IMG/VR virus record: IMGVR_UViG_2690316296_000007
Coordinates: 1-41,346 of that record
Length of the DNA stretch: 41,346 nt
Source: a virus
Taxonomy: Duplodnaviria; Heunggongvirae; Uroviricota; Caudoviricetes
Strand: one strand, 5' to 3'
Under the pieces are notes generated by a model, which saw only the letters and a program-made list of their open reading frames with translations, searched no databases and was not told where the DNA came from. The position numbers and the translations under genes are program-made. Positions within the stretch are counted from its first letter, which is position 1. Each line of letters begins with the position of its first letter. Below, in pieces: positions 1 through 30,046 of the stretch.

Positions 1-301
1 CTATTGCTGGGTAAGATCATTACGACTTGCATAGCCAATGAAGATAAATGTGACGACAAACGGCGCAGCAGTCTTCTTTTCCTTCATACTTTCCCCACCC
101 AGCATGCATACCTTCTACCATAACTGTAGTGAATGTCTGTTATGAGCGAGAAGCGGAAGTTCGTAATTATTATCAGTACAGTGCACCACTAATTATTTTC
201 ACACTGAAAGCATTAAGGTGTGAAGAGGGTTTTTATGCTTGATTTAATTATAAAATTGCAGGAAAGTGACCTTGTATCAGCTGATGATGAGTGAGTAAAA
301 A

Positions 302-1681
302 ATGTGGGAAGATAAGTATATTTGTCATAAATGCGTGAACGATAAATATGTCATGCAGCATATAATAAAAACTGGAAATAATTTTCAGATTTGCTCTTAC
401 TGCAAAAGGAAGCGTAAAAACATCCACCTCAAATATATTCTCAAGATGATGAATGAGGTTTTTGAGTACTACTATGATATATATGAGGATATCTATGATT
501 CCGGGCGCGGTGATAGCGCGCAGGATGTCATCTACGGAGAACTGGGCGTCGAATGGGACGTAGCTGAAGATATTTATGAATTTCTTTGTGATGAATATAA
601 TCCGCATAACGATTATGACTACATCCGGTATAATGACGGGTTTCTTTATCGGCACATAAATCACTATAGCGGAGAGCTTGCGCATACCTGGAGTAAAGCC
701 ACTGACTCCCTTATGAAAGAAACACGATATTTTAACCGTGAAGTTAATGATTTCCTAGATTCACTTTTCAGTGATATCGATAAACTAAAAAACAGAGACA
801 GTAATTCACCGATAAAAACTCTGACTGATGAGGTTCATCTTTTTCGTGCAAGGGTTTTTGAGGACCAAGAGGAAGTAAAGCAAGCCTTGGAGCATCCCGA
901 GAAAAATTTTGGACCTCCCCCAACAACTTTGGCTCGCTCGGGCCGTATGAACGCACAGGGGATTTCAGTATTTTACGGTGCAACCTCAGTGAATTTGGCA
1001 ATTGCTGAAGTAAGGCCGCCCGTCGGCAGTATTGTAGTAACGGCCTGTTTTGTACCGTTACGCGAGCTAAAAGTGCTGGACATTTCTGCCCTTGACTCGA
1101 TTAGTTTCGGCTCAGGTAGTAAATTTGATCCTCAGACTCGCAAAACCAGTGAGCGCGCGATTTTTTTCAGTACGCTTTCCCGTAAGTTGACGCTTCCTAC
1201 TTTTGGAAAAAGGCAGGACAGTGATTACCTCATCACCCAAGTGGTTGCCGATTACCTAGGTGACCGAAATAAATTTAAGCTTGATGGTGTCAGCTTTAAA
1301 TCTACCCAGGTAGATGCCAACGGTGAGGATGCTGAGACAGGATATAATGTCGTTCTGTTTAATAAGTCTTCCGGCGTCAGGCATGCCGCAGATAAATCTC
1401 GCCGATATAATGTTGAGATGTATGAACACATCGAAGATGACCAGTATGCTTTTGTTCCGGAAATTCAGTTGATAGTTGAGGAACAAATAAAACCGAGACA
1501 TATGGGTTCATTTTCATCCTCGCATGACAAAAATGATGCACTACTGTTGAAAACCAACAGTATGACTTATCATAAAATTACTGGTGTAAAATACCAAACA
1601 AGTGAGACGGAGATTCATCAGGGAGATAGCGTTCGAAAACAAGAGCCACCTCAGAAATTCGATGACCTGATTGACTTCTGA
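302..1681 (+). CDS. RES-domain protein with N-terminal zinc-ribbon-like extension (candidate NAD-targeting toxin/defence effector)
   Basis: 459-aa ORF; N-terminus has two CxxC pairs (CHKC ... CSYC); central segment HLFRARVF ... SGRMNAQGISVFYGATSVNLAIAEV fits the RES-domain pattern (conserved Arg, then GRxN...Y...A..E); AT-rich relative to the structural genes. Confidence 0.6.
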   Translation: MWEDKYICHKCVNDKYVMQHIIKTGNNFQICSYCKRKRKNIHLKYILKMMNEVFEYYYDIYEDIYDSGRGDSAQDVIYGELGVEWDVAEDIYEFLCDEYNPHNDYDYIRYNDGFLYRHINHYSGELAHTWSKATDSLMKETRYFNREVNDFLDSLFSDIDKLKNRDSNSPIKTLTDEVHLFRARVFEDQEEVKQALEHPEKNFGPPPTTLARSGRMNAQGISVFYGATSVNLAIAEVRPPVGSIVVTACFVPLRELKVLDISALDSISFGSGSKFDPQTRKTSERAIFFSTLSRKLTLPTFGKRQDSDYLITQVVADYLGDRNKFKLDGVSFKSTQVDANGEDAETGYNVVLFNKSSGVRHAADKSRRYNVEMYEHIEDDQYAFVPEIQLIVEEQIKPRHMGSFSSSHDKNDALLLKTNSMTYHKITGVKYQTSETEIHQGDSVRKQEPPQKFDDLIDF

Positions 1682-1905
1682 TCATCCGTTATATCAGGGT
1701 AAACTATTATTAAAGATGATGTGAGGGCAGTTAAGGAAGGAATTCACCCGGTATCGCGTTACTGGCGTCCCTTGATACCAAGCGGGCAGATTGCTGAACA
1801 GACACGTCTGTTTGAGCGAGGAGTTGGCTTTGTAGAATGCTTCAAGAGATAAAAACGCCTTATTTACGCAACTTGCTGCGAAAGGACCATGGCTTTGCTA
1901 GCTTC

Positions 1906-1945
1906 GGCACAGAGCGGACTGTCAGATTAGGCTTTACTCTGTGCC
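1906..1945. repeat. Hairpin motif copy 1 (GGCACAGAGCGGAC core; 9-bp inverted repeat ggcacagag/ctctgtgcc)
   Basis: Shares a 14-nt core with the copy at 3104..3127; sits in a GC-rich island between AT-rich cassettes. Confidence 0.4.
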
Positions 1946-2335
1946 ATAGATATGTAAGCTCACACCAGAGCTCATACAACTTCTTGCGGCATTTCCGGCC
2001 ATTCAGGATTTGCAGGATCCACACGACTGACCAGAACGCTGTAGCGTTCCCATGCCTCCAGTCGACTGCGCTCCTCATCTGTTGCCATATTCAGCCTGAC
2101 AGCGCGCTCCAGCGGCAAAATCACGGATTCAGCATCTGCTAGAAGTCTGGCTTTCCGATAGCCCATTTAAAGGATAACTTCCAAAGCAGTGGCAACTAAC
2201 ACTATTTATATCATGAGCAAGGCTTTTCCAGTTTTCATGCTCTCAGGGCATAAAAGTATCAACTATTTCTAATCCATGCCGATACTAACAAAAATACCAC
2301 CATAAAATATAATTAAGAAAATGTTAAGGATCTAC

Positions 2336-3010
2336 ATGAAAAGCTATTTAAAAGGTGTTTGGGAATACTTCGCGAGTCACATGTTGTTTATGTATCTCGG
2401 CTCAGTCTCTTTTGCATGGATTGATATCTGGTTTTTTAAAAAAATTGAACCATCAACAATTACTGCAACAGTTTCAACAATAACACTTGGACTAGCGATT
2501 TATGCATTAACAAGGGTAAATGAATGGATTAAAAACAAAAAATCAGAAAAGGCTTTCGAGAGAACTACATTGTTCATCGACAGCATGTTTCGATCAAAGG
2601 ACTTAAATCATCAATGTTATCAATCACTTATTTCTATACAGCCAAGAATAAAAAGTGAGAACCCCATACTCTACAAGCATCTCACTACAAGTGGGAGGGA
2701 GTTACTTTCTGAGTCAAAAGATTTACGATTCGAATTAGTTGCAATTCGGGATAGTTTTGGTTTGTGGAAAATCAAACCTAATCATTCAGACCTTCTAAAT
2801 AATCTCATCACCACCTACACTGCTCTTGTTGCACAATTTAATATCATTTATATTTTAATTGATGAATTAGAGCGTGGTGAAAGGGTAGTTTCTGAGTCAT
2901 CATGGGATAGTTATATCGGAATGATGGCAAGCGCTTATTCAAATTACCATGATCAGTTCGAAATATTCAAAGATTGTAGCTACAATGAACTTTTTAAAAT
3001 CATTAAATAA
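2336..3010 (+). CDS. Hypothetical membrane protein (two N-terminal TM helices)
   Basis: ORF 2321..3010; the ATG at 2336 is preceded by AAGGA; hydrophobic stretches SHMLFMYLGSVSFAWIDIWFF and TATVSTITLGLAIYAL; AT-rich. Confidence 0.45.
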   Translation: MKSYLKGVWEYFASHMLFMYLGSVSFAWIDIWFFKKIEPSTITATVSTITLGLAIYALTRVNEWIKNKKSEKAFERTTLFIDSMFRSKDLNHQCYQSLISIQPRIKSENPILYKHLTTSGRELLSESKDLRFELVAIRDSFGLWKIKPNHSDLLNNLITTYTALVAQFNIIYILIDELERGERVVSESSWDSYIGMMASAYSNYHDQFEIFKDCSYNELFKIIK

Positions 3011-3103
3011 TAATTGTCGTGTATTGCGATCATATCACCAGCGATACCCATGACATTATGGTGACCTGCTCTCCATTGATTAACACATTGTGATGTCAGT
3101 AAC

Positions 3104-3127
3104 GTCCGCTCCTGGCACAGAGCGGAC
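3104..3127. repeat. Hairpin motif copy 2 (gtccgctc-ctggcaca-gagcggac), between convergent cargo genes
   Basis: Perfect 8-bp stem; tccgctcctggcaca is shared with the copy at 4646..4668; may act as a bidirectional terminator. Confidence 0.45.
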
Positions 3128-3203
3128 GATATCACTGAGCTGAAGGTCCGCTGAGAGCGAGGAGCAGAAGTTATATTAAAAATTAATTAGCACGTTGATT
3201 TAA

Positions 3204-4502
3204 TCACCATGAAGGATAATTAGGTTTTTTTCCTCTTAAAAGAGATACTTTGTCAATTATCTCAACAGAAGCAGTTCTATAATCCTCCTGCTGAAGTAGG
3301 TGAACTGCATAATCTCTCAATTCTTGCAAAGTGGAAAAGCCGTTACTTTCGATGAGTATTATAATTATCTTAATATACTTAAAGATTTGTTCAGAGGATT
3401 CGTTCGCGTTGACGTTAAGTTCGTAAAAATCTTTACCATCATGAACAAGCTTGTTTCTTACGTCAGTATATAACTCGTCATAAACTTCTAGGTTTTTCTT
3501 AAATTTGATTAGTGAGTTATTACATGTAAGTGCTGCAATGTAGGTCCTTTGCTTCCATCCTTTCCAATTTGGGTCAATATTAGCAAGACCATCAAGTGCA
3601 AAGACTAGGTTTAGAAATTGTGATTCCGCGCCAATTGAATAAAAAGATTGCCTACATGCCCTAACTACGGAGCTAACTAATTTTGAAAGTTCATTTTCAA
3701 CGACTCCATCGTAGATAGAAGATAAATATTGCAACCCAGGGTAATACAAGCTGTCAACCTGAGGGCCTAGCCAATTATTACTCACAGCAAGGGGTCTTGA
3801 TATTCCACTTATCTTAATTGGTTTAAGATGAGTCCTCTCACGAGGAATGATTTCTACATCATAAAATCCGTCAGAGCGTTGACCTGCAGGATTAGGGGTA
3901 TATTCCATACGTGTAAATGAGCTGTGAGAAAATCTGACTAAATCAAGCGCATATTCAGCTATAGATAAACACATGTTTATAACATGGTTGTTATGATCAA
4001 TGCTTGAATTAAGTTTTAATAAATCAATATATGGTAGGTCACAGTTAAACTGTATATACGAACCATCTTGCTCTGATAATCGCTTATGTGACTCTTCATC
4101 AAATTGTCTTCCGCAATAAAAAATATACTTTCCGATCTCGATGGTTTCCTGAATGAAAATCTTCTCAATCGGCACAATAACTATGCACTCCATATTTTTG
4201 TTTTTACCCTCTAATTCAGCTAATTCTAGGTTAGAGCTTCTTGATTTAGCTAACTCTATTTCTACCCACTCAAAGCATATTGAGAAGTCTTCTAGAATTT
4301 CGATACTGCTTTTTTGATAACTATCCTTGGTATATTTAAATGTAATGCCATCTCCTTCAGGATAGGCACTGGCCCAATATCCCATATCTCTTAACTTTTT
4401 TAGAGATGTTGAGATATCGTCGACTTTATTAATAAAATCCTCTTTTCGCCATAAAACATTGCCAGTGTAGTTTTCGTACGGTGGTATTAAACGAGCTTTC
4501 AT
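3204..4502 (-). CDS. Hypothetical 432-aa cargo protein with Rx4H (HEPN-like) motif; candidate abortive-infection effector
   Basis: Long AT-rich ORF with AAGGAAG 6 nt upstream of the ATG; C-terminal region contains RNKLVHDG (R-x4-H); flanked by the repeated hairpin motif. Confidence 0.5.
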   Translation of the reverse strand: MKARLIPPYENYTGNVLWRKEDFINKVDDISTSLKKLRDMGYWASAYPEGDGITFKYTKDSYQKSSIEILEDFSICFEWVEIELAKSRSSNLELAELEGKNKNMECIVIVPIEKIFIQETIEIGKYIFYCGRQFDEESHKRLSEQDGSYIQFNCDLPYIDLLKLNSSIDHNNHVINMCLSIAEYALDLVRFSHSSFTRMEYTPNPAGQRSDGFYDVEIIPRERTHLKPIKISGISRPLAVSNNWLGPQVDSLYYPGLQYLSSIYDGVVENELSKLVSSVVRACRQSFYSIGAESQFLNLVFALDGLANIDPNWKGWKQRTYIAALTCNNSLIKFKKNLEVYDELYTDVRNKLVHDGKDFYELNVNANESSEQIFKYIKIIIILIESNGFSTLQELRDYAVHLLQQEDYRTASVEIIDKVSLLRGKKPNYPSW

Positions 4503-4645
4503 ATAACTTCCTTATTATCCAAGAGGATGTGACTGAAATTTTTATCAGACTTATCTACAATAATATAAATTGACATGAAAAATCTACTCAACAATTAACC
4601 GTTATGATTTGCTTGCGACGACTAAAACATGCCGATGGGTCGCAT

Positions 4646-10200: not shown

Positions 10201-11279
10201 CAGAACGGGTCCTCCTGTACTCTGGCTTTTTTCTTTTTCCGCGCGCCGGGGGCTTCGGGTTCAGGCAGATAAGCATCAGGTGGGCCGACACGGATTTCCG
10301 TCAGGGTGCCATTCTGGTCCTGAGTAAACGTGACTTCCGAGACAAGCAGTTCGGTATTGTCGAAACCACAGACCGGATCGAAGACAATCACCCGCTGGTT
10401 GGGCTGCCACAGCGTACCGTTACCCTGTCGCCAGCCCTGCACCACATAGGTGGTTTCATCCGTCCGCGCCGCCCGTTGTCGGGCTTCAAAGTCAGCACGC
10501 GCAATACAGCCTGCCCCCGTAGCCTGCCCTGTCTGCCTGATATACATCGGACGGTAACGGGCAATAAATGCATCCTCTGTGCGGGCCCGCAGCGCGGTGG
10601 TGGTGGCCTCACCGAAATCATCGTCGTTTCCGGCACGCTGCCCCGCCACCTGGTAAACTGAAAACCGCTCCCGGATACTCTTCTCCGTATCACAGGAAAG
10701 GATGTTTTCCCCAAGTACCAGCGCGGTATGTGCCCGCGTTGAGCCAATACCACCAATCACCAGCCTGCCGTGCGGGTCGTCATAAGCCAGCGCCTGCTGC
10801 TGACCGAGTATTTTGTTGATCACCTCGATCACCGTTTCACCGTGATCAGGCTGGACATCCGGAATAACACCCGACGGCGCATCGCTGTTCACCACCTCAA
10901 TGCCGAAAGGCGCAGCAAGCGCCTGCGCAATCTGTACCAGCGATCGTCCGTTAAACTGTGTCGGTTCGGCTGCACAGTCAATCAGGTCAGCAGTCAGACT
11001 ACGTCCGGCAATACCGGTGCTGACCGAACGGGCATCGTAACGAACGGGGGTCGCCTCCACCCAGCCGGTGATCACCAGCTCATCACCAATCAGCACTTCC
11101 ACTTTTGAACCATTTTTAATGCGCGGCTGAAGCGTGGTGATACCCTCATCTCCCGGCCACTGGCGGGTGATCTCCACGCTGAAATCCCGCGCCAGCCGTT
11201 CAATACCGGCACCGATGCGCACCGATGTCCAGCCATTCCACTCTCGGCCATTTACCCGTAGCGTGACGTTATCGTTCAT
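10200..11279 (-). CDS. Baseplate hub / tail protein (Mu P / gpD-like)
   Basis: 359-aa ORF following the DNA circulation gene. Confidence 0.7.
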   Translation of the reverse strand: MNDNVTLRVNGREWNGWTSVRIGAGIERLARDFSVEITRQWPGDEGITTLQPRIKNGSKVEVLIGDELVITGWVEATPVRYDARSVSTGIAGRSLTADLIDCAAEPTQFNGRSLVQIAQALAAPFGIEVVNSDAPSGVIPDVQPDHGETVIEVINKILGQQQALAYDDPHGRLVIGGIGSTRAHTALVLGENILSCDTEKSIRERFSVYQVAGQRAGNDDDFGEATTTALRARTEDAFIARYRPMYIRQTGQATGAGCIARADFEARQRAARTDETTYVVQGWRQGNGTLWQPNQRVIVFDPVCGFDNTELLVSEVTFTQDQNGTLTEIRVGPPDAYLPEPEAPGARKKKKARVQEDPF

Positions 11280-12604
11280 TGCACTGGCACCTTCAGAGGG
11301 ATCACCGGCACAAAGCCGGGATGCGTAATGGCATTACGCCGGATAATGTCCGCGTCACGCGCCGCGTTATCAAACCAGGTCGCCGCCAGCACCAGCGCGG
11401 GTAAAACCTCATCCGGCGTGCGCTGAATGATCCGTGCAGACTGTTCAAGGCGCGTGTTGATATCCGCATTCAGATCTGCTTTCACCCGGCGCAGCGCCAG
11501 AAACAGCGCATCACTGGTTGTACGGGACAACTCCTTATCAGTTGCCGTATTCAGTGTGTCGCGAATGTCAGTCAGTTCTTCCCACGTCGGCAGGTCAACC
11601 GTGCTTTTCACCGCCGGAGCATTGTTCAGTGCCGGATGCGTGACGGAAGGCCAGCCAGTGCTCTGCGCGGGTGTTGTTGCCTGCCCCACTGCGGCATTCT
11701 GCATCACCGCGGAAGTTGTTGGCGCAGGCAATCGGGTGACGGCATACGCCGCTTCGCTGATTGCGGTCGTACGAAGGATGCTGGCAACCACGTTACGCTG
11801 CTGCGTCGCCGTGGCGGTGGTTTTACTGTCCGTTTTCCAGACGCCGCGCGGTTGCAGATCGCTGCCGAGGCTGACACCGGAAAGCGTTTTGATCATGGTG
11901 ACCAGGTCGCTGGCGTTACCATAAAGGCGTTTCCCGGTACGCCACATTTTCTGCACCTGCTCAACGAAATTTTTGCCTGACGATGGCGGCGGCAGAAGTA
12001 CCGAGATATCCCCCTGCAACAGCCTGGCGGCATCCGATACGGCAGAATCCACCACTTTCATCGCATCAGAAACATACCCCAGCATTGTGCCGGCATTACC
12101 GACGACGTCGTTCTGCACAAAATCCGCCACGCCATCGATACTGAAACCACTGAAGCTGTCACTGATGCAGTCATCCAGTGCAGAACAGGATGACATCAGC
12201 GTCTGCGCCGTCGCCGCACCTGAAGTGGGATAAGAGAGTTCTCCCGCTTCGACAAACTTCAGGTCAAAGCGGACAATACGCCCTTCACTCTTCGATGTGC
12301 TGACCCGAACTTCCCCGTCAACACAGACTTTCAGCTCACCGTAAGTCGGATGGACAAGCGTGCCGGGACCGGGTTTATTCAGCGCGTCAATCAGGCGATC
12401 GCGCTGGTCAAAGCAGTCATCTCCCACCACATAAGCCGTGATGGACGGGCGGAAAGTGACTTTTCCCAGATCTTCGGTATAGGGTTTGTCGCGGTTCGGA
12501 TATTCGTGTGTTTCCACACGACGGCCGGTTCCCGCACTTTCTTCTTCAACCTTAAACGGCACACCTCGAAATGACGCATCCTGAAGCCTGTCTTTCCACG
12601 TCAT
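11276..12604 (-). CDS. DNA circulation protein (Mu N-like)
   Basis: ORF 11276..12610; the ATG at 12604 is preceded by GGAGTG; lies between tape measure and baseplate hub as in Mu-like tails. Confidence 0.65.
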   Translation of the reverse strand: MTWKDRLQDASFRGVPFKVEEESAGTGRRVETHEYPNRDKPYTEDLGKVTFRPSITAYVVGDDCFDQRDRLIDALNKPGPGTLVHPTYGELKVCVDGEVRVSTSKSEGRIVRFDLKFVEAGELSYPTSGAATAQTLMSSCSALDDCISDSFSGFSIDGVADFVQNDVVGNAGTMLGYVSDAMKVVDSAVSDAARLLQGDISVLLPPPSSGKNFVEQVQKMWRTGKRLYGNASDLVTMIKTLSGVSLGSDLQPRGVWKTDSKTTATATQQRNVVASILRTTAISEAAYAVTRLPAPTTSAVMQNAAVGQATTPAQSTGWPSVTHPALNNAPAVKSTVDLPTWEELTDIRDTLNTATDKELSRTTSDALFLALRRVKADLNADINTRLEQSARIIQRTPDEVLPALVLAATWFDNAARDADIIRRNAITHPGFVPVIPLKVPVQ

Positions 12605-12614
12605 ATACACTCCG

Positions 12615-12645
12615 AAAATAAAAAAGCCACCTATTAGAAGGTGGC
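12615..12645 (-). terminator. Rho-independent terminator after the tail-operon moron
   Basis: 7-bp stem GCCACCT/AGGTGGC with a 6-nt loop, followed on the minus strand by TTTTTTATTTT. Confidence 0.55.
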
Positions 12646-12665
12646 CTTGTAATGAATTTTATTAA

Positions 12666-13196
12666 TTAGCGAGTCAGAAACAACGAATCTTTATACTTTT
12701 GCTGTTGTTCATTTAAATACTTAGCTGTTTCATCGCTGGCAAATGGAAATATTACCGTATTTTTAGGCATGGTAATTTCTTTTTTGTCCAGCGTCAGAGT
12801 AAACATAGGAACATACTGAGCAGAGTAACGCACCGCAGAAACGAGCTCTAGTTTAGACTCTTCAATAACACTTAAATTATCCAGGCTAACTTTCTCTTCA
12901 TCTTTTTTCTTTGACGCATTTAAAGTTTTTATTACTTTATTTAATTTCTCCTGAAAATCCTCCTTAAAGTTTTCAGGATTGCCGTCGACAACAAGAATCT
13001 GTTCGCCCTGATTATCTGGAAAAATAATCTTTGCACTTATCAATTTATTTTCTTTATAAACATCACCAAGTTTTATGGCTCCTCCAGATAACTGAATAAT
13101 ATGTTCATCTTTAAAGGAGATGTTGCCAGAGATTATGAGAGATGAAAAAATAGCCGCTGCTCCAAGAATTACACTTGCTGTGATATAGCCTTTCAT
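12666..13196 (-). CDS. Moron: predicted secreted/periplasmic protein, unknown function
   Basis: AT-rich 176-aa ORF between tape measure and DNA circulation genes; signal-peptide-like N-terminus MKGYITASVILGAAAIFSSLIISG; lysine-rich; own terminator. Confidence 0.55.
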   Translation of the reverse strand: MKGYITASVILGAAAIFSSLIISGNISFKDEHIIQLSGGAIKLGDVYKENKLISAKIIFPDNQGEQILVVDGNPENFKEDFQEKLNKVIKTLNASKKKDEEKVSLDNLSVIEESKLELVSAVRYSAQYVPMFTLTLDKKEITMPKNTVIFPFASDETAKYLNEQQQKYKDSLFLTR

Positions 13197-13287
13197 TTTT
13201 CGCCTATTAACATTTTTCTAAATGTGCATTAATTCTATCACTCTATTTATGACTTACAACCAGCAATACATGTGAGGGGAATCCTAG

Positions 13288-15120
13288 CTACCAAAATCGG
13301 GTATAGCCAACATCGTGATTTATATCAATGCCACTGGAGCGTGTTTCCGTAACCCGCATACCTGGTGGCATATTTATAAATGATACCTTGATCTCACCAT
13401 CAACTTTTGGCGCGGTAGCTTTATTAATCATGAAGGGATTCGAGCCTGTGGCATCGGAGGCGTTGTTTGACTGAGCCGGATCTACCGCCGGATAAGGTGT
13501 GTATCCCCGCGCCGGTATTCCCGTCCCATAAGCATCATAAGCACCCGCGCCCCACTGCGCAGAGTTAATGGCATCGACCGTGTCACCGGAACTGTCGGTA
13601 AACCACTCAATAATTGGCTTCAGCTTGTCCCACATATCCTGAAACCACTTAACAACCGGCCCCCAGTTATTGATCACCATCCCCAGCGGCGACCAGGCAA
13701 AAACTTTCTTAAGGAGTTCCCAGCCAGCCTCAAAATAAGGACTAATGGTTTCCCAGAGCTTCTTGAAATAAGGTCCGACAACATCCCAGTTGGTGATAAT
13801 TAATCCCGCAGCCAGGGCTATCGCCGTCGCAATCATGCCAATCGGCGTCATCGACATGATCCTGCTGACAATGCTGATGGCACTGCCCACGCCCATCAAT
13901 CCCAGTTTCAGAATCGCAAGACCGGCAGCAAGCCCGACGACGCCGCGAATAACCCGGGGATTTTCATCCGCAAACTTCGTGAATTTCTCCCCCAACTCCC
14001 CCAGCCACTGCGTGATGTTCTTAGCGTCACCAGAAAATGCGCCGCCAATAGCCGCAAGGCCGTTAGTTGCGGTCCCCGTCATTGCCTCCCACAGGTTGGA
14101 CAGCGTACCAAGCTGAGCCTGAACACGTTTATTCAGGCTGGCCTGTTTATTCATCTTCTGCTGGATCTGATCGTAGCCATCCTTTCCTTTATCGATCAGC
14201 GCATTGACCACCTGAAGGGTTTCGGCATCATCACCAAATATTGCCTTAAGTACACCGGTTCGCTTAACGTCGGTCAGTTTTCGCAGCTTTGCCAGTTGCC
14301 TGAACATGTTATCAAGACCACCAAAACTCCCTTTGCCATCAGTAAAATCGAGCTGTACCCCGAGTTTCTGGCGGGCCATGATTTTATTGACGTCCCTGAT
14401 TTTCTTAACGCTTAATCCGGACTGGATAACTTTTCGCAGGGCATTACCTGCCGACTCCCCGTTCATCCCCATCTGATCCATCATGACACTGATGGGGGCA
14501 AGACTCTGTGCAGCCTGAAGACCGTCCTTATTCACCATCTTCAGAACAGAGCTGGTTTTAGTGAAGAATGACAGCATGTTGGTGTCGTCAACGCCCAGAT
14601 AAAACGCCTTCTGAATTGTGTCGAACAGCCCCATCATGTCTTCTGAGGCCGTTCCGGTAGCATCCTGCATCTTTGCGGCAAACTCGGCAGCCGCTTCCGG
14701 TGTTTTTTTCAGTTGTACCGCAAGATAAGCTGTCGCTTTACCCACACCACCCAGAATGTTTTCTGCCGGGATCCCCTGACGCACCAGCATCTGCATCATG
14801 TTCTGGAAATCAGCCGTTGTACCGGGTAGCTGGTTACCCAGGCCAATAGCCAGTTTATTGATGTCCTGAAAGCTCTTTCCAACCTCGCCGTTCGCATCCA
14901 TCATGGCGACTTTCAGCCCGGTAGCGGCGTTTTCCTGATCGGCATAAGATTTCAGGGAAAGCGTCAGCCCCGCTGCCAGTCCGCCACCAAGCGCCAGCCC
15001 ACCCTGTGACGCTTCTTCCGCCTGGCGTTTAAATCCCCGGATTTTCTTTTGCATTTTCGACAGCGCGGGAGAAAGCCTGTCGACACCGGTGATCAACGCC
15101 TTAAGCTCAAATTCAGCCAT
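13288..15120 (-). CDS. Tail tape measure protein
   Basis: 610 aa, Ala/Gly-rich with hydrophobic segments, immediately after the chaperone pair. Confidence 0.85.
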   Translation of the reverse strand: MAEFELKALITGVDRLSPALSKMQKKIRGFKRQAEEASQGGLALGGGLAAGLTLSLKSYADQENAATGLKVAMMDANGEVGKSFQDINKLAIGLGNQLPGTTADFQNMMQMLVRQGIPAENILGGVGKATAYLAVQLKKTPEAAAEFAAKMQDATGTASEDMMGLFDTIQKAFYLGVDDTNMLSFFTKTSSVLKMVNKDGLQAAQSLAPISVMMDQMGMNGESAGNALRKVIQSGLSVKKIRDVNKIMARQKLGVQLDFTDGKGSFGGLDNMFRQLAKLRKLTDVKRTGVLKAIFGDDAETLQVVNALIDKGKDGYDQIQQKMNKQASLNKRVQAQLGTLSNLWEAMTGTATNGLAAIGGAFSGDAKNITQWLGELGEKFTKFADENPRVIRGVVGLAAGLAILKLGLMGVGSAISIVSRIMSMTPIGMIATAIALAAGLIITNWDVVGPYFKKLWETISPYFEAGWELLKKVFAWSPLGMVINNWGPVVKWFQDMWDKLKPIIEWFTDSSGDTVDAINSAQWGAGAYDAYGTGIPARGYTPYPAVDPAQSNNASDATGSNPFMINKATAPKVDGEIKVSFINMPPGMRVTETRSSGIDINHDVGYTRFW

Positions 15121-25550: not shown

Positions 25551-25700
25551 TGCATAATCCTCTTGGATGGTTCGCGTACGATACGTGGCATCCTTCTCAG
25601 AATCGAATCGCACTCCATTCCGGTTTTGCCATAAACGATCTTTTATGCTTCGCTGGATGTAGTTGATAGTTGTTGAAACTCAATGAACAGGAGTTCACAA

Positions 25701-26036
25701 ATGAATAGTTATGAATGGGAATGGCTTTTGAACAAAGATGACACCCTATACTTTTTCCCCGTAGGCCATTCTGTAGAAGGTAATTACAAAATTCACTTTG
25801 AGTTGAGCGGTAGTTGTAACCTTAGAGTCTCTGATGCTGAATGGCATGGTAAACCTGTACTGCTGTTCGAATACTTCGATGAAGATGATGACCGCCCTGC
25901 AATAATCGAAATATTAGAAACAACCACTACAACTGTGGAGGCGATGATCGCACATCTGAATAGTATCGATAGTATTTACCATGAACCGATTTACAAAGCT
26001 GTTTACGAGTGGGCTGTAAAGTTTTTCTATCGATGA
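25701..26036 (+). CDS. Hypothetical acidic cargo protein
   Basis: AT-rich plus-strand ORF opposite to the late operon; CAGGAG before the ATG at 25701; acidic stretch FEYFDEDDDRPAIIEILE. Confidence 0.5.
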   Translation: MNSYEWEWLLNKDDTLYFFPVGHSVEGNYKIHFELSGSCNLRVSDAEWHGKPVLLFEYFDEDDDRPAIIEILETTTTTVEAMIAHLNSIDSIYHEPIYKAVYEWAVKFFYR

Positions 26037-26079
26037 TACTTCGTTATCTTTCTGGCATTCACAATACCTTTACATATTA

Positions 26080-26706
26080 ATGACATGCCAGCACAATACT
26101 GTCACTTACAACCGTTCGGATTACCTAGAGAAAAGTATGATTCAGGATTTACTGATCGAAGCAATTAGTCACGATAGGATGCATAAAAAGTTAAATGAAC
26201 TGAATGGCTACTTCTACAATCGCAAACATGAAACACAAATACGTGATGAGTTAGTTGTTATACTCAATCAAATCAGCACACTAACTGCTTTAAGTGAGCA
26301 TCCAAAACTCGGTATCGGCGCTGTTGACATATCACTTTATAACCAGTCGATATTAACGTCTGAACATAATGGCAATGTTGCAACCATCGAGATAAAACAC
26401 CATTACCCAAAGGATTTACTTTATCGGCAAGTTCAAGAAGACATCATTTCCGATATTTCAAGAGTAATAGTTTCACCAACTACACATTTTATCCATATAA
26501 TCCAGCAAAGAACCAGGATTAATACTCCTTCTTTTGGCCAAGTGAAATTCCTTGAACGTGATGCAAGTGATATCAGCACTTATGTGCAATACCTTGAAGA
26601 GCTAAGTTCATTTCCCAGTAATTTTCATAAAAAAAGTATATGTATTGAGGTACTTGGTGAAATTATGTCGACATATACCTTTAACGTATATTCATTTGAC
26701 AACTGA
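26080..26706 (+). CDS. Hypothetical cargo protein with possible PD-(D/E)xK nuclease signature
   Basis: AT-rich ORF (alternative start 26137); GAVDISLY ... TIEIKHH fits the D ... ExK spacing. Confidence 0.45.
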   Translation: MTCQHNTVTYNRSDYLEKSMIQDLLIEAISHDRMHKKLNELNGYFYNRKHETQIRDELVVILNQISTLTALSEHPKLGIGAVDISLYNQSILTSEHNGNVATIEIKHHYPKDLLYRQVQEDIISDISRVIVSPTTHFIHIIQQRTRINTPSFGQVKFLERDASDISTYVQYLEELSSFPSNFHKKSICIEVLGEIMSTYTFNVYSFDN

Positions 26707-26727: not shown

Positions 26728-26985
26728 TTAATGGTTAGTTCTCTCTGCATCTATTTTACGAATATCAGCTTTATCCCGATTGCAGTTAGCCAGTGCAGAC
26801 AACAGGCTCACATTCAGCTCCAGGCTGGCACCATACGTCAGCGGATTGGGTATAAACGGTACAGGAGTATCAGAAGTCAGGCTGGCTGGCAGTGGTGCCA
26901 CCGGAGCGCTCACGTAAACCGTTCGCGAATTTCCGCAACCGGTCAGCAGCGGCAGCAGGCACAGGACGTGAAGCACAATCATCAT
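26728..26985 (-). CDS. Rz1-like outer-membrane lipoprotein (o-spanin)
   Basis: ORF in another frame overlapping the 3' end of Rz; lipobox LLTGC; Pro-rich. Confidence 0.6.
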   Translation of the reverse strand: MMIVLHVLCLLPLLTGCGNSRTVYVSAPVAPLPASLTSDTPVPFIPNPLTYGASLELNVSLLSALANCNRDKADIRKIDAERTNH

Positions 26986-27262
26986 CCGCAACAGCCACTT
27001 TGATATCTTCCTGGGTTCTCTGTGACTCCAGTGCGATCTGCTGTTTTGCATGCTGGTTAACCTCTATAACTGTATTGACGATTTGCAGTGATTGCAGGAC
27101 GTTACGGGTAATGGCTGTTGCAGATTCAACATTTTGTACAGCCTCATCAGCACGTTTCTTTTCGTGCTGATATTTGCTGTAGTAGTGGTTGGCAGACCAG
27201 ATGAAAGAACCGATGACAGTAAAGAAGAATGCAGCGATAACCAGCTTATAGCTCAACTTCAT
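26870..27262 (-). CDS. Rz-like i-spanin
   Basis: 130-aa ORF after the endolysin; N-terminal TM helix then a charged helical region. Confidence 0.7.
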   Translation of the reverse strand: MKLSYKLVIAAFFFTVIGSFIWSANHYYSKYQHEKKRADEAVQNVESATAITRNVLQSLQIVNTVIEVNQHAKQQIALESQRTQEDIKVAVADDDCASRPVPAAAADRLRKFANGLRERSGGTTASQPDF

Positions 27263-28331: not shown

Positions 28332-29153
28332 ATGAATTTTTCTTACACAAAACAGGATGGTCATACCAAACGCTGCCTTGTCAGAGCATTCAATGTTAAT
28401 ACAGCAACAACAGATATACTCTTCGACCAAATTTCAAATTCTGGTAAATTTATTGTTGACACTGTTTTTAAAATAAACAATGAACAACATTTAATACTGA
28501 AAGAGTTTTCTACAAATAATAAAAGTCATTACTTACACTTTGCATTATATAATCCAAAAGAACAAGTATCGATCACACCAAAAATAAAAACCGCAAGCGA
28601 TCTTCTTGATGTTGAAAACCTTGACAATTTGCACGCTTTTTTATATGTAAAAGAAAATAAAATTGCATCTCTAATGCAAATATCAACAAATTGGTGTGAA
28701 ATTAAAATCGCTAAAATATTCGAGCAATTTGGTATAAAAATAACACCATCAGCAATTTTGCAAAAAAATGTCATTCAACGAATTAAAGATGATAAACTTA
28801 GGGCTTTGCATCTTAATATTAGCGTTGATGCTTCTAATTTTGTGAAAACGCCCAGCTTTATAGACTCTATTTTTCAGAAAGAACCCAAACTTAAAGCTAG
28901 AGGTATTTCAGGACATTTAACTCTTGATGCAAAAGGAAATGCTGAACTAGCACAATCTATTGAAACCAACCCTAGTGGTTGGATAAATGATTTGGATTCT
29001 GATTTTTATATAGAAACAAAAAAAGGAGAGAAAATAACTAGTGACGACATTAAGTTAACAAAAGTTTATTATACAGTCCCTTATGGTTCAAAATCTATTA
29101 ATTCAAAATATGCGAAAGAAATTCTAGAGGACTTTGCTCAAAAAGAGCTATAA
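28332..29153 (+). CDS. Cargo protein A, 273 aa, soluble, unknown function
   Basis: AT-rich ORF with strong Shine-Dalgarno, antisense to the late operon; no recognisable motif. Confidence 0.55.
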   Translation: MNFSYTKQDGHTKRCLVRAFNVNTATTDILFDQISNSGKFIVDTVFKINNEQHLILKEFSTNNKSHYLHFALYNPKEQVSITPKIKTASDLLDVENLDNLHAFLYVKENKIASLMQISTNWCEIKIAKIFEQFGIKITPSAILQKNVIQRIKDDKLRALHLNISVDASNFVKTPSFIDSIFQKEPKLKARGISGHLTLDAKGNAELAQSIETNPSGWINDLDSDFYIETKKGEKITSDDIKLTKVYYTVPYGSKSINSKYAKEILEDFAQKEL

Positions 29154-29176
29154 TATACTAAAAAAAGGAGGCTAAC

Positions 29177-29662
29177 ATGTTAAAATCACTCAATTACTCA
29201 GGTATATCATTAACTTTGTTAAACATTTTAGCCTCAGTATTATTTTCAATTTTCCTCACACATACTTTAACGAACAATACTGACGCATTAAATTTGGTCG
29301 CCAATGTATTTTCTATCCTATCTGGTTTTCTTTTGTTGGTTATCACAATGTCTGGTGAAAACTCTACTCTGATGAACAACTTAAGCAAATTAGACGCTGC
29401 AAATCAAGAAATACGTTTCCTCATGCGTTTTAACAAATATTATGCTTTATTCTTGTTATATATTTTAACATTAGCTTTAATTTTTGTTTTTTATTTAATA
29501 TCCAAGGATAAAGAAAACACATCTCAATACTTCATTCTGTTTAAGAAGTCAATTGGTTACATTATCTCTTTTTTAACTTGTTTTTCTTTTATACAATCAA
29601 CATTCATCCCACTAAAAATAAAAGAATTATTTAAAGAGAAAAGACAACTTAATAAAAAATAG
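29177..29662 (+). CDS. Cargo protein B, 161 aa, four predicted TM helices
   Basis: AAGGAGG Shine-Dalgarno; four hydrophobic segments; ends at the terminator. Confidence 0.55.
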   Translation: MLKSLNYSGISLTLLNILASVLFSIFLTHTLTNNTDALNLVANVFSILSGFLLLVITMSGENSTLMNNLSKLDAANQEIRFLMRFNKYYALFLLYILTLALIFVFYLISKDKENTSQYFILFKKSIGYIISFLTCFSFIQSTFIPLKIKELFKEKRQLNKK

Positions 29663-29684
29663 GCCGCATAGCGGCCATTTTTTT
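29662..29684. terminator. Bidirectional rho-independent terminator
   Basis: GGCCGC-ATA-GCGGCC hairpin with T7 run on the plus strand and T6 run on the minus strand; overlaps the stops of cargo protein B and Q. Confidence 0.6.
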
Positions 29685-30046
29685 CATGTTAACAAAATAC
29701 TTAAACAGCCATCGATGAATCCCATTGCAGTCTGTAATTCTTTTCGGATGGTACCATCAGAACACTTCTGCTTCTTTGCGATAGTTCTTAATGAGATGCC
29801 GATAATAAAATGAGCAATAACCAACTCATACTCTTCGGGCTTATATTTACGCAATCGCGCAACACAGCTGTCAATCATGATTCCTTCATCATCATCGCAT
29901 TGTTGGCGTGTTTTCTTTCCATGAGGTAGTAAACCTTTAAACCCTGCAGCAACAGGCTGCCAGTCCACACCACTGTTATCTGCTGCAGCCCATGCTCCCC
30001 AGCGGTCCAAAACTTCATACATATCACGCATCAACTTTCTCCACAA
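29684..30046 (-). CDS. Late-gene antiterminator Q (QuuD/QuuQ-like)
   Basis: VLDRWGAWAA ... DWQPVAAGFKGLL ... CDDDEGIMIDSCVARL ... CSDGTIRKELQTAMGFIDG resembles E. coli prophage Q proteins as recalled. Confidence 0.8.
   Translation of the reverse strand: MWRKLMRDMYEVLDRWGAWAAADNSGVDWQPVAAGFKGLLPHGKKTRQQCDDDEGIMIDSCVARLRKYKPEEYELVIAHFIIGISLRTIAKKQKCSDGTIRKELQTAMGFIDGCLSILLT

What the first reader, a model, noticed from the sequence alone, without database searches (positions are those of the whole stretch)
12615..13196. Secreted-protein moron with its own terminator inserted inside the tail operon
A lysine-rich, AT-rich ORF with a signal-peptide-like N-terminus sits between the tape-measure and DNA-circulation genes and is followed by a clean intrinsic terminator. 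Morons at this position usually encode lysogenic-conversion functions such as periplasmic or surface proteins affecting host fitness or phage resistance.
Basis: partly seen in the sequence, partly recalled or inferred. Interest (0 to 1): 0.45.

Follow-up and report, generated by a model that had tools for sequence, protein, structure and literature searches.

The report
Membrane-anchored moron gene in prophage tail operon
A small AT-rich gene for an uncharacterised protein, probably anchored in the inner membrane and facing the periplasm, sits as an optional add-on ("moron") between two tail genes of an E. coli prophage, in a slot where related prophages carry other envelope-protein genes or nothing; this is a classic kind of phage accessory gene and its function is untested.

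Summary
A 176-aa ORF lies on the minus strand at 12666-13196. Its GC is 0.345 against about 0.55 in the flanks. It sits between the tape-measure gene and the DNA-circularisation gene of an SfV/e14-like E. coli prophage and is followed by a strong hairpin plus T-run.

The moron reading is supported:
- SfV and about 84% of E. coli genomes with this tail backbone lack the gene.
- The same slot is elsewhere empty or holds four unrelated low-GC cargos: a signal-peptide protein, a lipoprotein, a TM-anchored OB-fold protein and a bPH protein.

Three corrections:
- The protein is probably not secreted. It has no cysteine, so it is not a lipoprotein. Its N-terminal hydrophobic helix is about 20 residues long and better conserved than the rest, which suggests a retained membrane anchor with a periplasmic α/β domain.
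- Even the empty slot has a terminator-like hairpin.
- The own promoter is only a weak consensus match.

The family (PHROG 5485, 79 clusters) has no Pfam, NCBIfam, PADLOC or PDB relative. It recurs in the same slot down to 30% identity, and also in another tail type and outside phages.

Its function is inferred, not shown. The most likely role is envelope-level protection against phage entry. This is an ordinary kind of element carrying an uncharacterised cargo.

The parts
13232..13259 (-). Promoter-like site: TTGTAA, 16-nt spacer, TAGAAT, with TG before the -10 hexamer. It lies in the 91-bp spacer after the tape-measure stop codon.
   Evidence: One search gives 9 of 12 matches plus the extended -10. 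The region yields 3 such sites against 2.7 expected by chance, so this is weak evidence. No equivalent site was found upstream of the homologues.
13203..13205 (-). Weak ribosome-binding site (AGG), with 6 nt between it and the ATG at 13196.
   Evidence: Read from the sequence. A similar A(T/A)AGGCGAA..ATG context occurs in the 30%-identical homologue locus L011.
12666..13196 (-). Moron ORF of 176 aa (identical to WP_000679479.1), stop codon included. It belongs to an uncharacterised family, PHROG 5485.
   Evidence: GC is 0.345.
13128..13190 (-). Codons for residues 3-23, the N-terminal hydrophobic helix (predicted signal-anchor / transmembrane segment).
   Evidence: The AlphaFold model has a helix at 3-23. 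The family median for the uncharged stretch is 20 residues. Column entropy is 2.36 here against 2.75 for residues 51-176. Small residues dominate at positions 7, 8, 12, 14, 18, 19 and 23.
12669..13103 (-). Codons for residues 32-176, the predicted periplasmic α/β domain. It has strands 32-36, 39-44, 46-59, 66-72, 114-126 and 132-143 and helices 74-93 and 149-171. It includes the most conserved motif, N-[IV]-[IL]-x4-G-x-V-x-L-G-x-V-Y-x-E (residues 32-49).
   Evidence: Model m33a19be8191d has mean pLDDT 90.4.
12613..12648 (-). Intrinsic-terminator-like hairpin (stem 12648..12623) plus its T-rich tail. It ends directly in front of the GGAG ribosome-binding site of the DNA-circularisation gene.
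   Evidence: -15.6 kcal/mol, z = -4.7. Hairpins occupy the same place in every slot variant examined except the opposite-strand OB-fold cargo (L008), and so also in the empty slot.
13288..15120 (-). Upstream flank: the tail tape-measure gene. Sequence homology with cargo-free relatives fades within its last few codons.
   Evidence: Pfam PF10145.
11276..12604 (-). Downstream flank: the Mu N-like DNA-circularisation gene. The likely start is the ATG at 12604, with GGAG at 12613..12610.
   Evidence: Pfam PF07157.
29684..30046 (-). Q-type late antiterminator of the same prophage. It is the inferred reason a terminator inside the late operon is tolerated.
   Evidence: Pfam PF06530, E = 1.9e-46. The read-through itself is inferred from lambdoid Q biology and was not tested.

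Best explanation
SHOWN:
- The segment from about 12613 to 13290 is an optional cassette. It sits in a variable cargo slot between the tape-measure gene and the DNA-circularisation gene of an SfV/e14-like E. coli prophage.
- The cassette consists of a 91-bp AT-rich spacer, a 176-aa ORF and a strong hairpin terminator.
- The ORF belongs to an uncharacterised family of about 175 aa that is under purifying selection. The family travels as low-GC cargo. It is most often found in this same slot of Mu-type tail modules, even at 30% identity. It also occurs in an unrelated E217-type tail cluster and outside phages.

INFERRED, fairly confident:
- The protein is a bitopic inner-membrane protein with its N-terminus inside, a retained TM helix at about residues 3-23, and a roughly 145-residue α/β domain in the periplasm.
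- It is not a lipoprotein and probably not a released secreted protein.
- During lytic growth, Q-antiterminated late transcription reads through the terminator, so the tail operon is not interrupted.

INFERRED, speculative:
- The gene is expressed in the lysogen from its own weak promoter.
- The protein acts at the inner membrane or periplasm to block entry of incoming phage DNA or tail-tip proteins. This would be superinfection exclusion, as shown for the tail-operon moron gp15 of HK97 and for the membrane-anchored Ltp, which targets a tape-measure protein.

Sub-confidences: moron cassette about 0.9; membrane-anchored periplasmic protein about 0.7; phage-entry blocking about 0.35.
For: Optional and inserted:
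- SfV has 45 bp at this junction, and E. coli 22AR0750 likewise has the empty slot.
- The backbone is in 1096 of 5426 complete E. coli genomes and the cargo in 173-175 of them.

Slot polymorphism:
- Four unrelated alternative cargos occupy the same slot, all low GC (0.31-0.42). They are a 164-aa signal-peptide protein, a 225-aa lipoprotein (lipobox LLGGC), a TM-anchored tRNA_anti-like OB-fold protein on the opposite strand, and a bPH_1 protein.
- They are found in 84, 54, 70 and 24 genomes respectively.
- Including this one, 4 of the 5 cargos are envelope-targeted.

Foreign composition: GC 0.345 and GC3 0.31 against about 0.6.

Terminator.

Family and context:
- 79 clusters.
- The gene is in the same slot in Leclercia (53% identity, L001-L004), in L011 (30%), in L021 (34%), and in 82 of 82 further IMG/VR and genome loci.
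- It is in an E217/PhiTE-type baseplate cluster in L012-L014.
- It lies beside a resolvase or in non-phage DNA in L015-L018.

Topology:
- No cysteine.
- TM conservation and a face of small residues.
- AlphaFold model with pLDDT 90.4 and a helix at 3-23.
- A structural relative annotated as a phage lipoprotein, another envelope-anchored version of the fold: BFVD A0A2H4P829, E = 1.3e-6.

Late read-through: a Q antiterminator is present.

Precedent: HK97 gp15 is a tail-operon moron encoding an inner-membrane superinfection-exclusion protein (PMC3594210).
Against: - The promoter is one consensus match at chance density and was not found upstream of homologues. In L011 only 34 bp separate the tape-measure stop from the gene. 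Expression may therefore be late and co-transcribed rather than from the prophage.
- Carriers are not depleted in a second SfV-like tail module. 11 of 60 carriers have at least 2 copies of the backbone, against about 12% overall. This gives no sign of exclusion of closely related phages, though the test is weak and confounded.
- Divergence of the cargo is not coupled to divergence of the tape-measure protein. This argues against tight co-evolution with its own tape-measure protein.
- Signal-peptide cleavage could not be tested. An AAA motif at residues 13-15 could in principle be a cleavage site.
Confidence: 0.4

Rival explanations
1. It is a lysogenic-conversion factor that benefits the host for reasons unrelated to phages. 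Examples would be envelope-stress tolerance, resistance to serum, bile, colicins or tailocins, or colonisation. The protein would act as a periplasmic or inner-membrane binding protein.
For: The architecture is the same envelope-targeted moron. The carriers come from many hosts and include the pathogen ETEC H10407. Known morons such as lambda Lom and Bor act this way (PMC3594210). Some family members lie outside prophages, in chromosomal or islet contexts, which suggests a function not tied to phage biology.
Against: No similarity to any known virulence, immunity or stress protein. The strong, deep association with one slot next to the tape-measure gene of contractile tails is not explained by a generic host-fitness role.
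Confidence: 0.2
2. It is a late, lytic-cycle accessory protein, co-transcribed with the tail operon under Q antitermination rather than expressed from the prophage. From the membrane or periplasm it would, for example, stop secondary infection of the already infected cell or keep progeny from being inactivated on cell debris. This is a T5 Llp-like logic.
For: The gene has the same orientation as the late operon. The promoter evidence is at chance level and absent upstream of homologues. Only 34 bp separate the tape-measure stop from the gene in L011. A Q antiterminator is present. The slot association persists to 30% identity.
Against: The gene is dispensable: it is absent from SfV and from most relatives. 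The low GC and separate terminator are typical of autonomously expressed morons. One cargo in the same slot (the OB-fold protein) is on the opposite strand and so cannot be part of the late transcript.
Confidence: 0.15
3. It is a released, soluble periplasmic (secreted) protein with a cleaved Sec signal peptide. This is a rival about localisation only.
For: The N-terminus has an MK n-region and a hydrophobic core. An AAA motif at residues 13-15 could serve as an AXA cleavage site. One source names a homologue 'Secreted protein'.
Against: Cleavage after A15 would leave only a 9-residue h-region. The uncharged stretch has a median of 20 residues across 61 members. It is more conserved than the mature domain and shows a periodic face of small residues, which is unusual for a disposable signal peptide. 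The AAA motif is not conserved in the family.
Confidence: 0.2
4. It is a conserved structural or assembly component of this tail type.
For: It recurs in the same slot between the tape-measure and DNA-circularisation genes in relatives as distant as 30% identity.
Against: It is absent from SfV, a viable phage, and from about 84% of E. coli backbones. Unrelated genes replace it in the same slot. It has a membrane-targeting N-terminus, whereas tails assemble in the cytoplasm. It is also found outside phage tail clusters. It has no match in 50,697 deposited phage genomes.
Confidence: 0.03

Closest known systems
HK97 gene 15 moron (gp15, YebO-like superinfection-exclusion protein)
   Same: Both are optional, compositionally foreign cassettes inside the tail operon next to the tape-measure gene of a temperate enterobacterial phage. 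Both encode a small protein with a single N-terminal membrane segment. gp15 is expressed from the prophage and blocks DNA entry without touching the outer-membrane receptor (PMC3594210).
   Different: There is no sequence relationship: no Pfam or YebO hit. From my own recollection (not checked here), gp15 is far smaller, with almost no periplasmic domain. This protein has a 145-residue folded periplasmic domain. The slots differ too: chaperone|tape-measure in HK97, tape-measure|DNA-circularisation here. The function here is untested.
Ltp-type superinfection-exclusion lipoproteins (Streptococcus phage TP-J34)
   Same: Both are prophage-encoded, membrane-anchored and extracytoplasmic. From my own knowledge, Ltp blocks injection by binding the incoming tape-measure protein. 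The family is introduced in PMC3952083 (listed).
PHROG 5485 / WP_000679479.1 family of hypothetical proteins
   Same: Full-length match, E = 3.8e-108 over 1-176 of 176. The protein is identical in many E. coli genomes, including ETEC H10407.
   Different: The family has no assigned function, no Pfam or NCBIfam model and no literature under its accession. Naming it therefore adds no mechanism.
Lipoprotein of Pseudomonas phage ventosus (BFVD A0A2H4P829)
   Same: It is the only significant fold match: Foldseek E = 1.3e-6, probability 1.00, TM-score 0.53/0.63. It is also a phage-encoded, envelope-anchored protein of similar size.
   Different: Sequence identity is 15%. It is anchored by a lipid rather than a TM helix, and it is itself uncharacterised.
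i-spanin (Rz-type) lysis proteins
   Same: Same predicted topology and size: N-in, one TM helix, and a periplasmic domain of about 150 aa.
   Different: From my own knowledge, i-spanins are coiled-coil proteins, lie in the lysis cassette and pair with an o-spanin. This protein is rich in β-strands and sits in the tail operon. The prophage already has a DUF2570 protein at 26870..27262 beside its holin. In the near-identical relative L1PEag1, RefSeq places an Rz1-like LysC gene overlapping the equivalent DUF2570 gene.

Membership tests
Moron (as described for HK97/HK022-type phages in PMC3594210) | Present in some genomes and absent from close relatives, lying between two genes that are adjacent in those relatives | tested here: met
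   SfV and E. coli 22AR0750 have only a 45-bp gap between the two genes. 173 of 1096 backbone-carrying genomes have the cargo.
Moron (as described for HK97/HK022-type phages in PMC3594210) | Base composition distinct from the surrounding genes | tested here: met
   GC 0.345 against about 0.55; GC3 0.31 against 0.58-0.61. Homologues also have GC 0.34-0.41 inside loci of 0.53-0.55.
Moron (as described for HK97/HK022-type phages in PMC3594210) | Own transcription terminator | tested here: met
   10-bp stem plus T-run, -15.6 kcal/mol, z = -4.7. Caveat: the empty slot also has a hairpin at this place.
Moron (as described for HK97/HK022-type phages in PMC3594210) | Own promoter | tested here: inconclusive
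   One 9/12 match with an extended -10 at 13259..13232. The region has 3 hits against 2.7 expected by chance. None was found upstream of homologues or of the other cargos.
Moron (as described for HK97/HK022-type phages in PMC3594210) | Expressed from the repressed prophage | not testable with these tools
   This needs RNA-seq, 5' RACE or a reporter in a lysogen. ETEC H10407 carries the identical gene.
Secreted protein with a cleaved Sec signal peptide | Positively charged n-region plus a hydrophobic h-region | tested here: met
   MK followed by an uncharged hydrophobic stretch.
Secreted protein with a cleaved Sec signal peptide | Short (7-15 residue) h-region followed by a conserved small-x-small cleavage site, with the signal region poorly conserved | tested here: inconclusive
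   The median uncharged stretch is 20 residues. The segment is more conserved than the mature part (entropy 2.36 against 2.75). The AAA at 13-15 is not conserved. No dedicated predictor (SignalP, DeepTMHMM) was available.
Bacterial lipoprotein | Lipobox ending in an invariant cysteine | tested here: not met
   The protein has no cysteine at all.
HK97 gp15 / YebO family | Sequence membership in the YebO family | tested here: not met
   No Pfam family at E <= 0.01 for the protein. None of the families reported for the 61 members at E <= 0.1 is YebO.
Known anti-phage defence systems (PADLOC-DB v2) | Match to a defence-protein model | tested here: not met
   0 families at E <= 1. The alternative cargos also have none.
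Structural tail component of Mu/SfV-type tails | Present in all functional relatives | tested here: not met
   Absent from SfV, absent from most E. coli backbones, and no match in 50,697 phage records.

The most novel reading that the evidence does not exclude
The tape-measure|DNA-circularisation junction of SfV/e14-like prophages, present in about 20% of complete E. coli genomes, is a dedicated exchange slot for envelope-acting anti-superinfection genes. The 176-aa family would be a new class of inner-membrane-anchored periplasmic exclusion protein with a fold that has no solved relative. It would intercept the tail-tip or tape-measure proteins of incoming contractile-tailed phages. The constant hairpin at the slot may serve as the recombination or cassette boundary.
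Probability: 0.25. Interest if true: 0.6.

Novelty: new member of a known kind. Interest (0 to 1): 0.35.

Why it matters
Morons are a main route by which prophages change their hosts, and few tail-operon morons have a known function. This cassette is common: about 3% of complete E. coli genomes carry it, including ETEC H10407. It sits in a slot that offers at least five interchangeable, mostly envelope-targeted cargos on a nearly constant backbone. That makes it a compact natural test set for finding new superinfection-exclusion or envelope-modifying proteins.

If the 176-aa family blocks phage entry, it would add a new fold and mechanism to a poorly understood defence layer, and it would matter for phage-therapy host range. 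If it does nothing of the kind, it remains one more hypothetical accessory gene.

Tried and rejected
- Sequence annotation. Pfam, NCBIfam and PADLOC gave nothing for the protein, and Pfam gave nothing consistent for the 61 family members. PHROGs gave only an 'unknown function' family.
- Solved-structure relatives. A profile search of PDB sequences found nothing below E = 0.6.
- Relatedness of the alternative cargos to this family was rejected: hhalign probability was below 1%.
- Transposon-type insertion was rejected: no flanking direct or inverted repeats.
- RNA elements: only sub-threshold leader-like hits caused by the terminator hairpin.
- Deposited phage genomes: tblastn found no match.
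- Literature: nothing under the accession, and no paper on this slot. The ST64B sseK3 paper gave no positional information.
- Co-evolution with the tape-measure protein was considered and not supported.
- Depletion of second related prophages in carriers was tested crudely and not seen.
- The search for related loci with the broad alignments failed for lack of a conserved stretch.

Full report
**What is there**

The finding's span contains a 176-aa ORF on the minus strand (12666..13196, ATG start). It lies in a sharp GC trough: 0.32-0.36 against 0.55-0.59 on either side. The ORF's GC is 0.345 and its GC3 is 0.31, against GC3 of 0.58 and 0.61 for the two neighbouring genes.

The upstream gene (13288..15120, minus strand) is a tape-measure protein (PF10145). 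The downstream gene (11276..12604/12610, minus strand) carries the Mu N-type DNA_circ_N domain (PF07157). Sheath, tube, chaperone and Mu P/45/46/47-type baseplate genes surround them.

Seventeen bases after the stop codon lies a hairpin with a 10-bp stem and a 6-nt loop, followed by a T-run (12648..12623). Its folding energy is -15.6 kcal/mol, z = -4.7, and none of 200 shuffles folds as well.

The protein has 11.9% lysine against 2-7.5% in the neighbouring tail proteins, but it is net acidic (pI 5.95).

**Whose genome it is, and whether the gene is optional**

The region is 99-100% identical to many E. coli chromosomes. The tail module is that of phage SfV and of the e14-type elements: ymfQ, ymfR, pinE and tfaE are annotated in the best-matching record.

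The window also holds a Q antiterminator (29684..30046), a holin, a terminase, a CI-like repressor and an integrase. It is therefore a lambdoid-regulated prophage with a Mu-type contractile tail.

In SfV itself the tape-measure and DNA-circularisation genes are 45 bp apart. Of 5426 complete E. coli genomes, 1096 contain the flanking backbone at about 95-98% identity, and only 173-175 contain this cargo.

On this near-constant backbone the slot takes several forms:
- empty;
- a 164-aa protein with a classical signal peptide;
- a 225-aa lipoprotein (lipobox LLGGC);
- a 148-aa TM-anchored tRNA_anti-like OB-fold protein, encoded on the opposite strand;
- a 125-aa bPH_1 protein.

All four alternative cargos are low in GC (0.31-0.42). 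They occur in 84, 54, 70 and 24 genomes respectively. They are unrelated to the 176-aa family.

There are no flanking repeats. The cargos therefore appear to be exchanged by recombination between the last codons of the tape-measure gene and the ribosome-binding site of the next gene.

**Two caveats on the moron anatomy**

First, a terminator-like hairpin sits directly in front of the GGAG..ATG of the DNA-circularisation gene in every slot variant examined except the opposite-strand OB-fold cargo (L008). That includes the empty slot of SfV and of E. coli 22AR0750 and the distant homologue loci. The hairpin sequences differ between cargos, so each cassette seems to bring its own. Still, a hairpin here is a property of the slot and not only of this gene. 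It is tolerated presumably because late transcription is Q-antiterminated. That is an inference from the Q gene and from lambdoid biology.

Second, the promoter evidence is thin. There is one 9/12 match with an extended -10 at 13259..13232, in a region where chance gives 2.7 such matches. The scan found nothing upstream of homologues or of the other cargos. In L011 only 34 bp separate the tape-measure stop from the gene. Expression from the repressed prophage is therefore an assumption.

**The protein**

There is no Pfam, NCBIfam or PADLOC match. The only hit is PHROG 5485, 'unknown function'.

A word-indexed search found E. coli copies and 52-59%-identical full-length relatives, of which the named ones are from Leclercia and Lelliottia. 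An exhaustive profile search of 1.8 billion representatives found 79 clusters. Sixty-one full-length members align over about 175 residues. G39, G44 and Y124 are invariant, and the strongest motif, N-[IV]-[IL]-x4-G-x-V-x-L-G-x-V-Y-x-E, lies right after the hydrophobic segment.

With this alignment AlphaFold gives a confident model (pLDDT 90.4, pTM 0.75). It has a helix at residues 3-23, a short linker, and then a six-stranded antiparallel sheet packed by two long helices at 74-93 and 149-171.

**Secreted or anchored?**

The protein has no cysteine, so it is not a lipoprotein. Across the family the uncharged N-terminal stretch has a median length of 20 residues. It is more conserved than the periplasmic bulk (mean column entropy 2.36 against 2.75 bits).

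Small residues (75-97% G/A/S/C) occupy positions 7, 8, 12, 14, 18, 19 and 23. By my arithmetic at 100° per residue, these fall on one half of a helix. This pattern suggests a retained transmembrane helix that packs against another helix, not a disposable signal peptide.

With one lysine before the segment and an acidic stretch after it, the expected topology is N-in and C-out. I could not run a signal-peptide predictor, so cleavage (for example after AAA at 13-15) is not excluded. I rate 'anchored' at about 0.7.

**Where the family lives**

- It is in the same slot between the tape-measure and DNA-circularisation genes in Leclercia prophages (53% identity), in two metagenomic prophages at 30% and 34% identity, in Citrobacter and Edwardsiella, and in all 82 additional loci examined.
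- It is also in an unrelated E217/PhiTE-type myovirus baseplate cluster.
- It lies next to a resolvase or among ordinary chromosomal genes in other contigs.
- It is low in GC (0.34-0.41) everywhere, and in every locus with GC-richer (0.53-0.55) surroundings it stands out from them.
- It is absent from 50,697 deposited phage genomes.

Its divergence does not track that of the tape-measure protein. Moron alleles at 55-59% identity occur with tape-measure proteins at 74-77% identity, while a 53% allele occurs with a 36% tape-measure protein. It is thus a mobile cargo gene with a marked preference for this slot, and not a structural gene.

**What it most likely does**

Nothing here demonstrates a function. 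The best-supported guess rests on context and precedent:
- an optional, envelope-located protein;
- encoded beside the tape-measure gene of a temperate enterobacterial phage;
- in a slot where 4 of 5 cargos are envelope-targeted.

The closest worked example is HK97 gp15, a tail-operon moron. Its inner-membrane product blocks DNA entry of incoming phages in a way that depends on the tail of the incoming phage (PMC3594210). From my own knowledge, Ltp of TP-J34 is a membrane-anchored exclusion protein that binds a tape-measure protein.

I therefore propose a prophage-expressed, inner-membrane-anchored periplasmic protein that interferes with phage genome entry, at roughly 0.35 probability.

Against this:
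- there is no homology to any exclusion protein;
- the promoter is weak;
- there is no co-variation with the tape-measure protein;
- carriers are not depleted in a second SfV-like module (11 of 60 carriers have at least two, against about 12% overall), although that test is crude.

The rivals are a phage-unrelated host-fitness factor (0.2), a late-expressed lytic accessory protein (0.15) and a structural role (0.03).

**Verdict**

'Secreted' is probably wrong in detail, the terminator is not unique to the cargo, and the functional claim remains a prior.

The element is a new member of a known kind, carrying an uncharacterised protein family whose fold has no solved relative. Interest is modest at 0.35. 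It would rise if the slot proves to be a dedicated exchange site for entry-blocking proteins.

Noticed in passing
window 12613-13290; loci L006 (996-1490), L007 (969-1346), L008 (1016-1462), L009 (959-1636), L010 (empty): The junction between the tape-measure and DNA-circularisation genes is a polymorphic cargo slot in E. coli SfV/e14-like prophages. It has at least five alternative low-GC cargos, four of them envelope-targeted, plus an empty state. None of the four cargos scanned (this protein and the L006, L008 and L009 cargos; the bPH protein was not scanned) matches a PADLOC model.
   Followed up: partly
L005 (SfV) 4060-4100; L010 924-945: The 'empty' 45-bp slot still contains a terminator-like hairpin plus T-run immediately before the ribosome-binding site of the DNA-circularisation gene. 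Hence there is a terminator in mid tail operon even without cargo. Its role is unknown: attenuator, mRNA-end stabiliser, remnant of a lost cassette, or recombination boundary.
   Followed up: partly
window 1-4600: A low-GC region (0.33-0.42) lies beyond the Pin-type invertase and tail-fibre genes. It holds a 459-aa RES-domain protein with a weak HEPN/RES N-terminal domain match (302..1681 +) and two ORFs without any Pfam or PADLOC match (2321..3010 +, 3204..4502 -). This may be defence or toxin cargo at the prophage end.
   Followed up: partly
window 28332-29662: Two plus-strand ORFs (273 and 161 aa, GC about 0.30) lie between the Q antiterminator and the holin, opposite in direction to the late operon. 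The second has a sub-threshold DUF4064 match. This is the slot called a moron in phage SfIV (PMC3851460).
   Followed up: partly
window 25683-26706: Two plus-strand ORFs (117 and 208 aa, GC 0.37-0.39) without Pfam or PADLOC matches lie between the lysis genes and the terminase region. This is another likely moron.
   Followed up: partly
L001-L004, about 10013-11810 in L001: The Leclercia relatives carry two extra genes without Pfam matches (503-520 aa and 94 aa) between the DNA-circularisation gene and the gpP hub gene. The window lacks them, so this is a second variable slot in the same tail module.
   Followed up: no
L078 5560-6250; hit H118 (NZ_CP101274.1): In one IMG/VR prophage an IS200/IS605-type TnpA (169 aa) is inserted right after the moron's terminator hairpin. 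Another E. coli genome has an IS5 in the same interval.
   Followed up: partly
L105 (NC_017633.1 325809..326339, ETEC_RS01640): The reference enterotoxigenic strain H10407 carries the identical protein (WP_000679479.1). Existing transcriptome and proteome data for that strain could settle whether it is expressed in the lysogen.
   Followed up: no
window 12666-13196; L001, L011, L012, L015: The family keeps a GC of 0.34-0.41 in hosts and phages of 0.53-0.55 GC, even between members only 30% identical. The low GC has not drifted towards the surrounding composition, which suggests either selection for AT-richness (for example H-NS-type silencing) or repeated replacement from an AT-rich pool.
   Followed up: no
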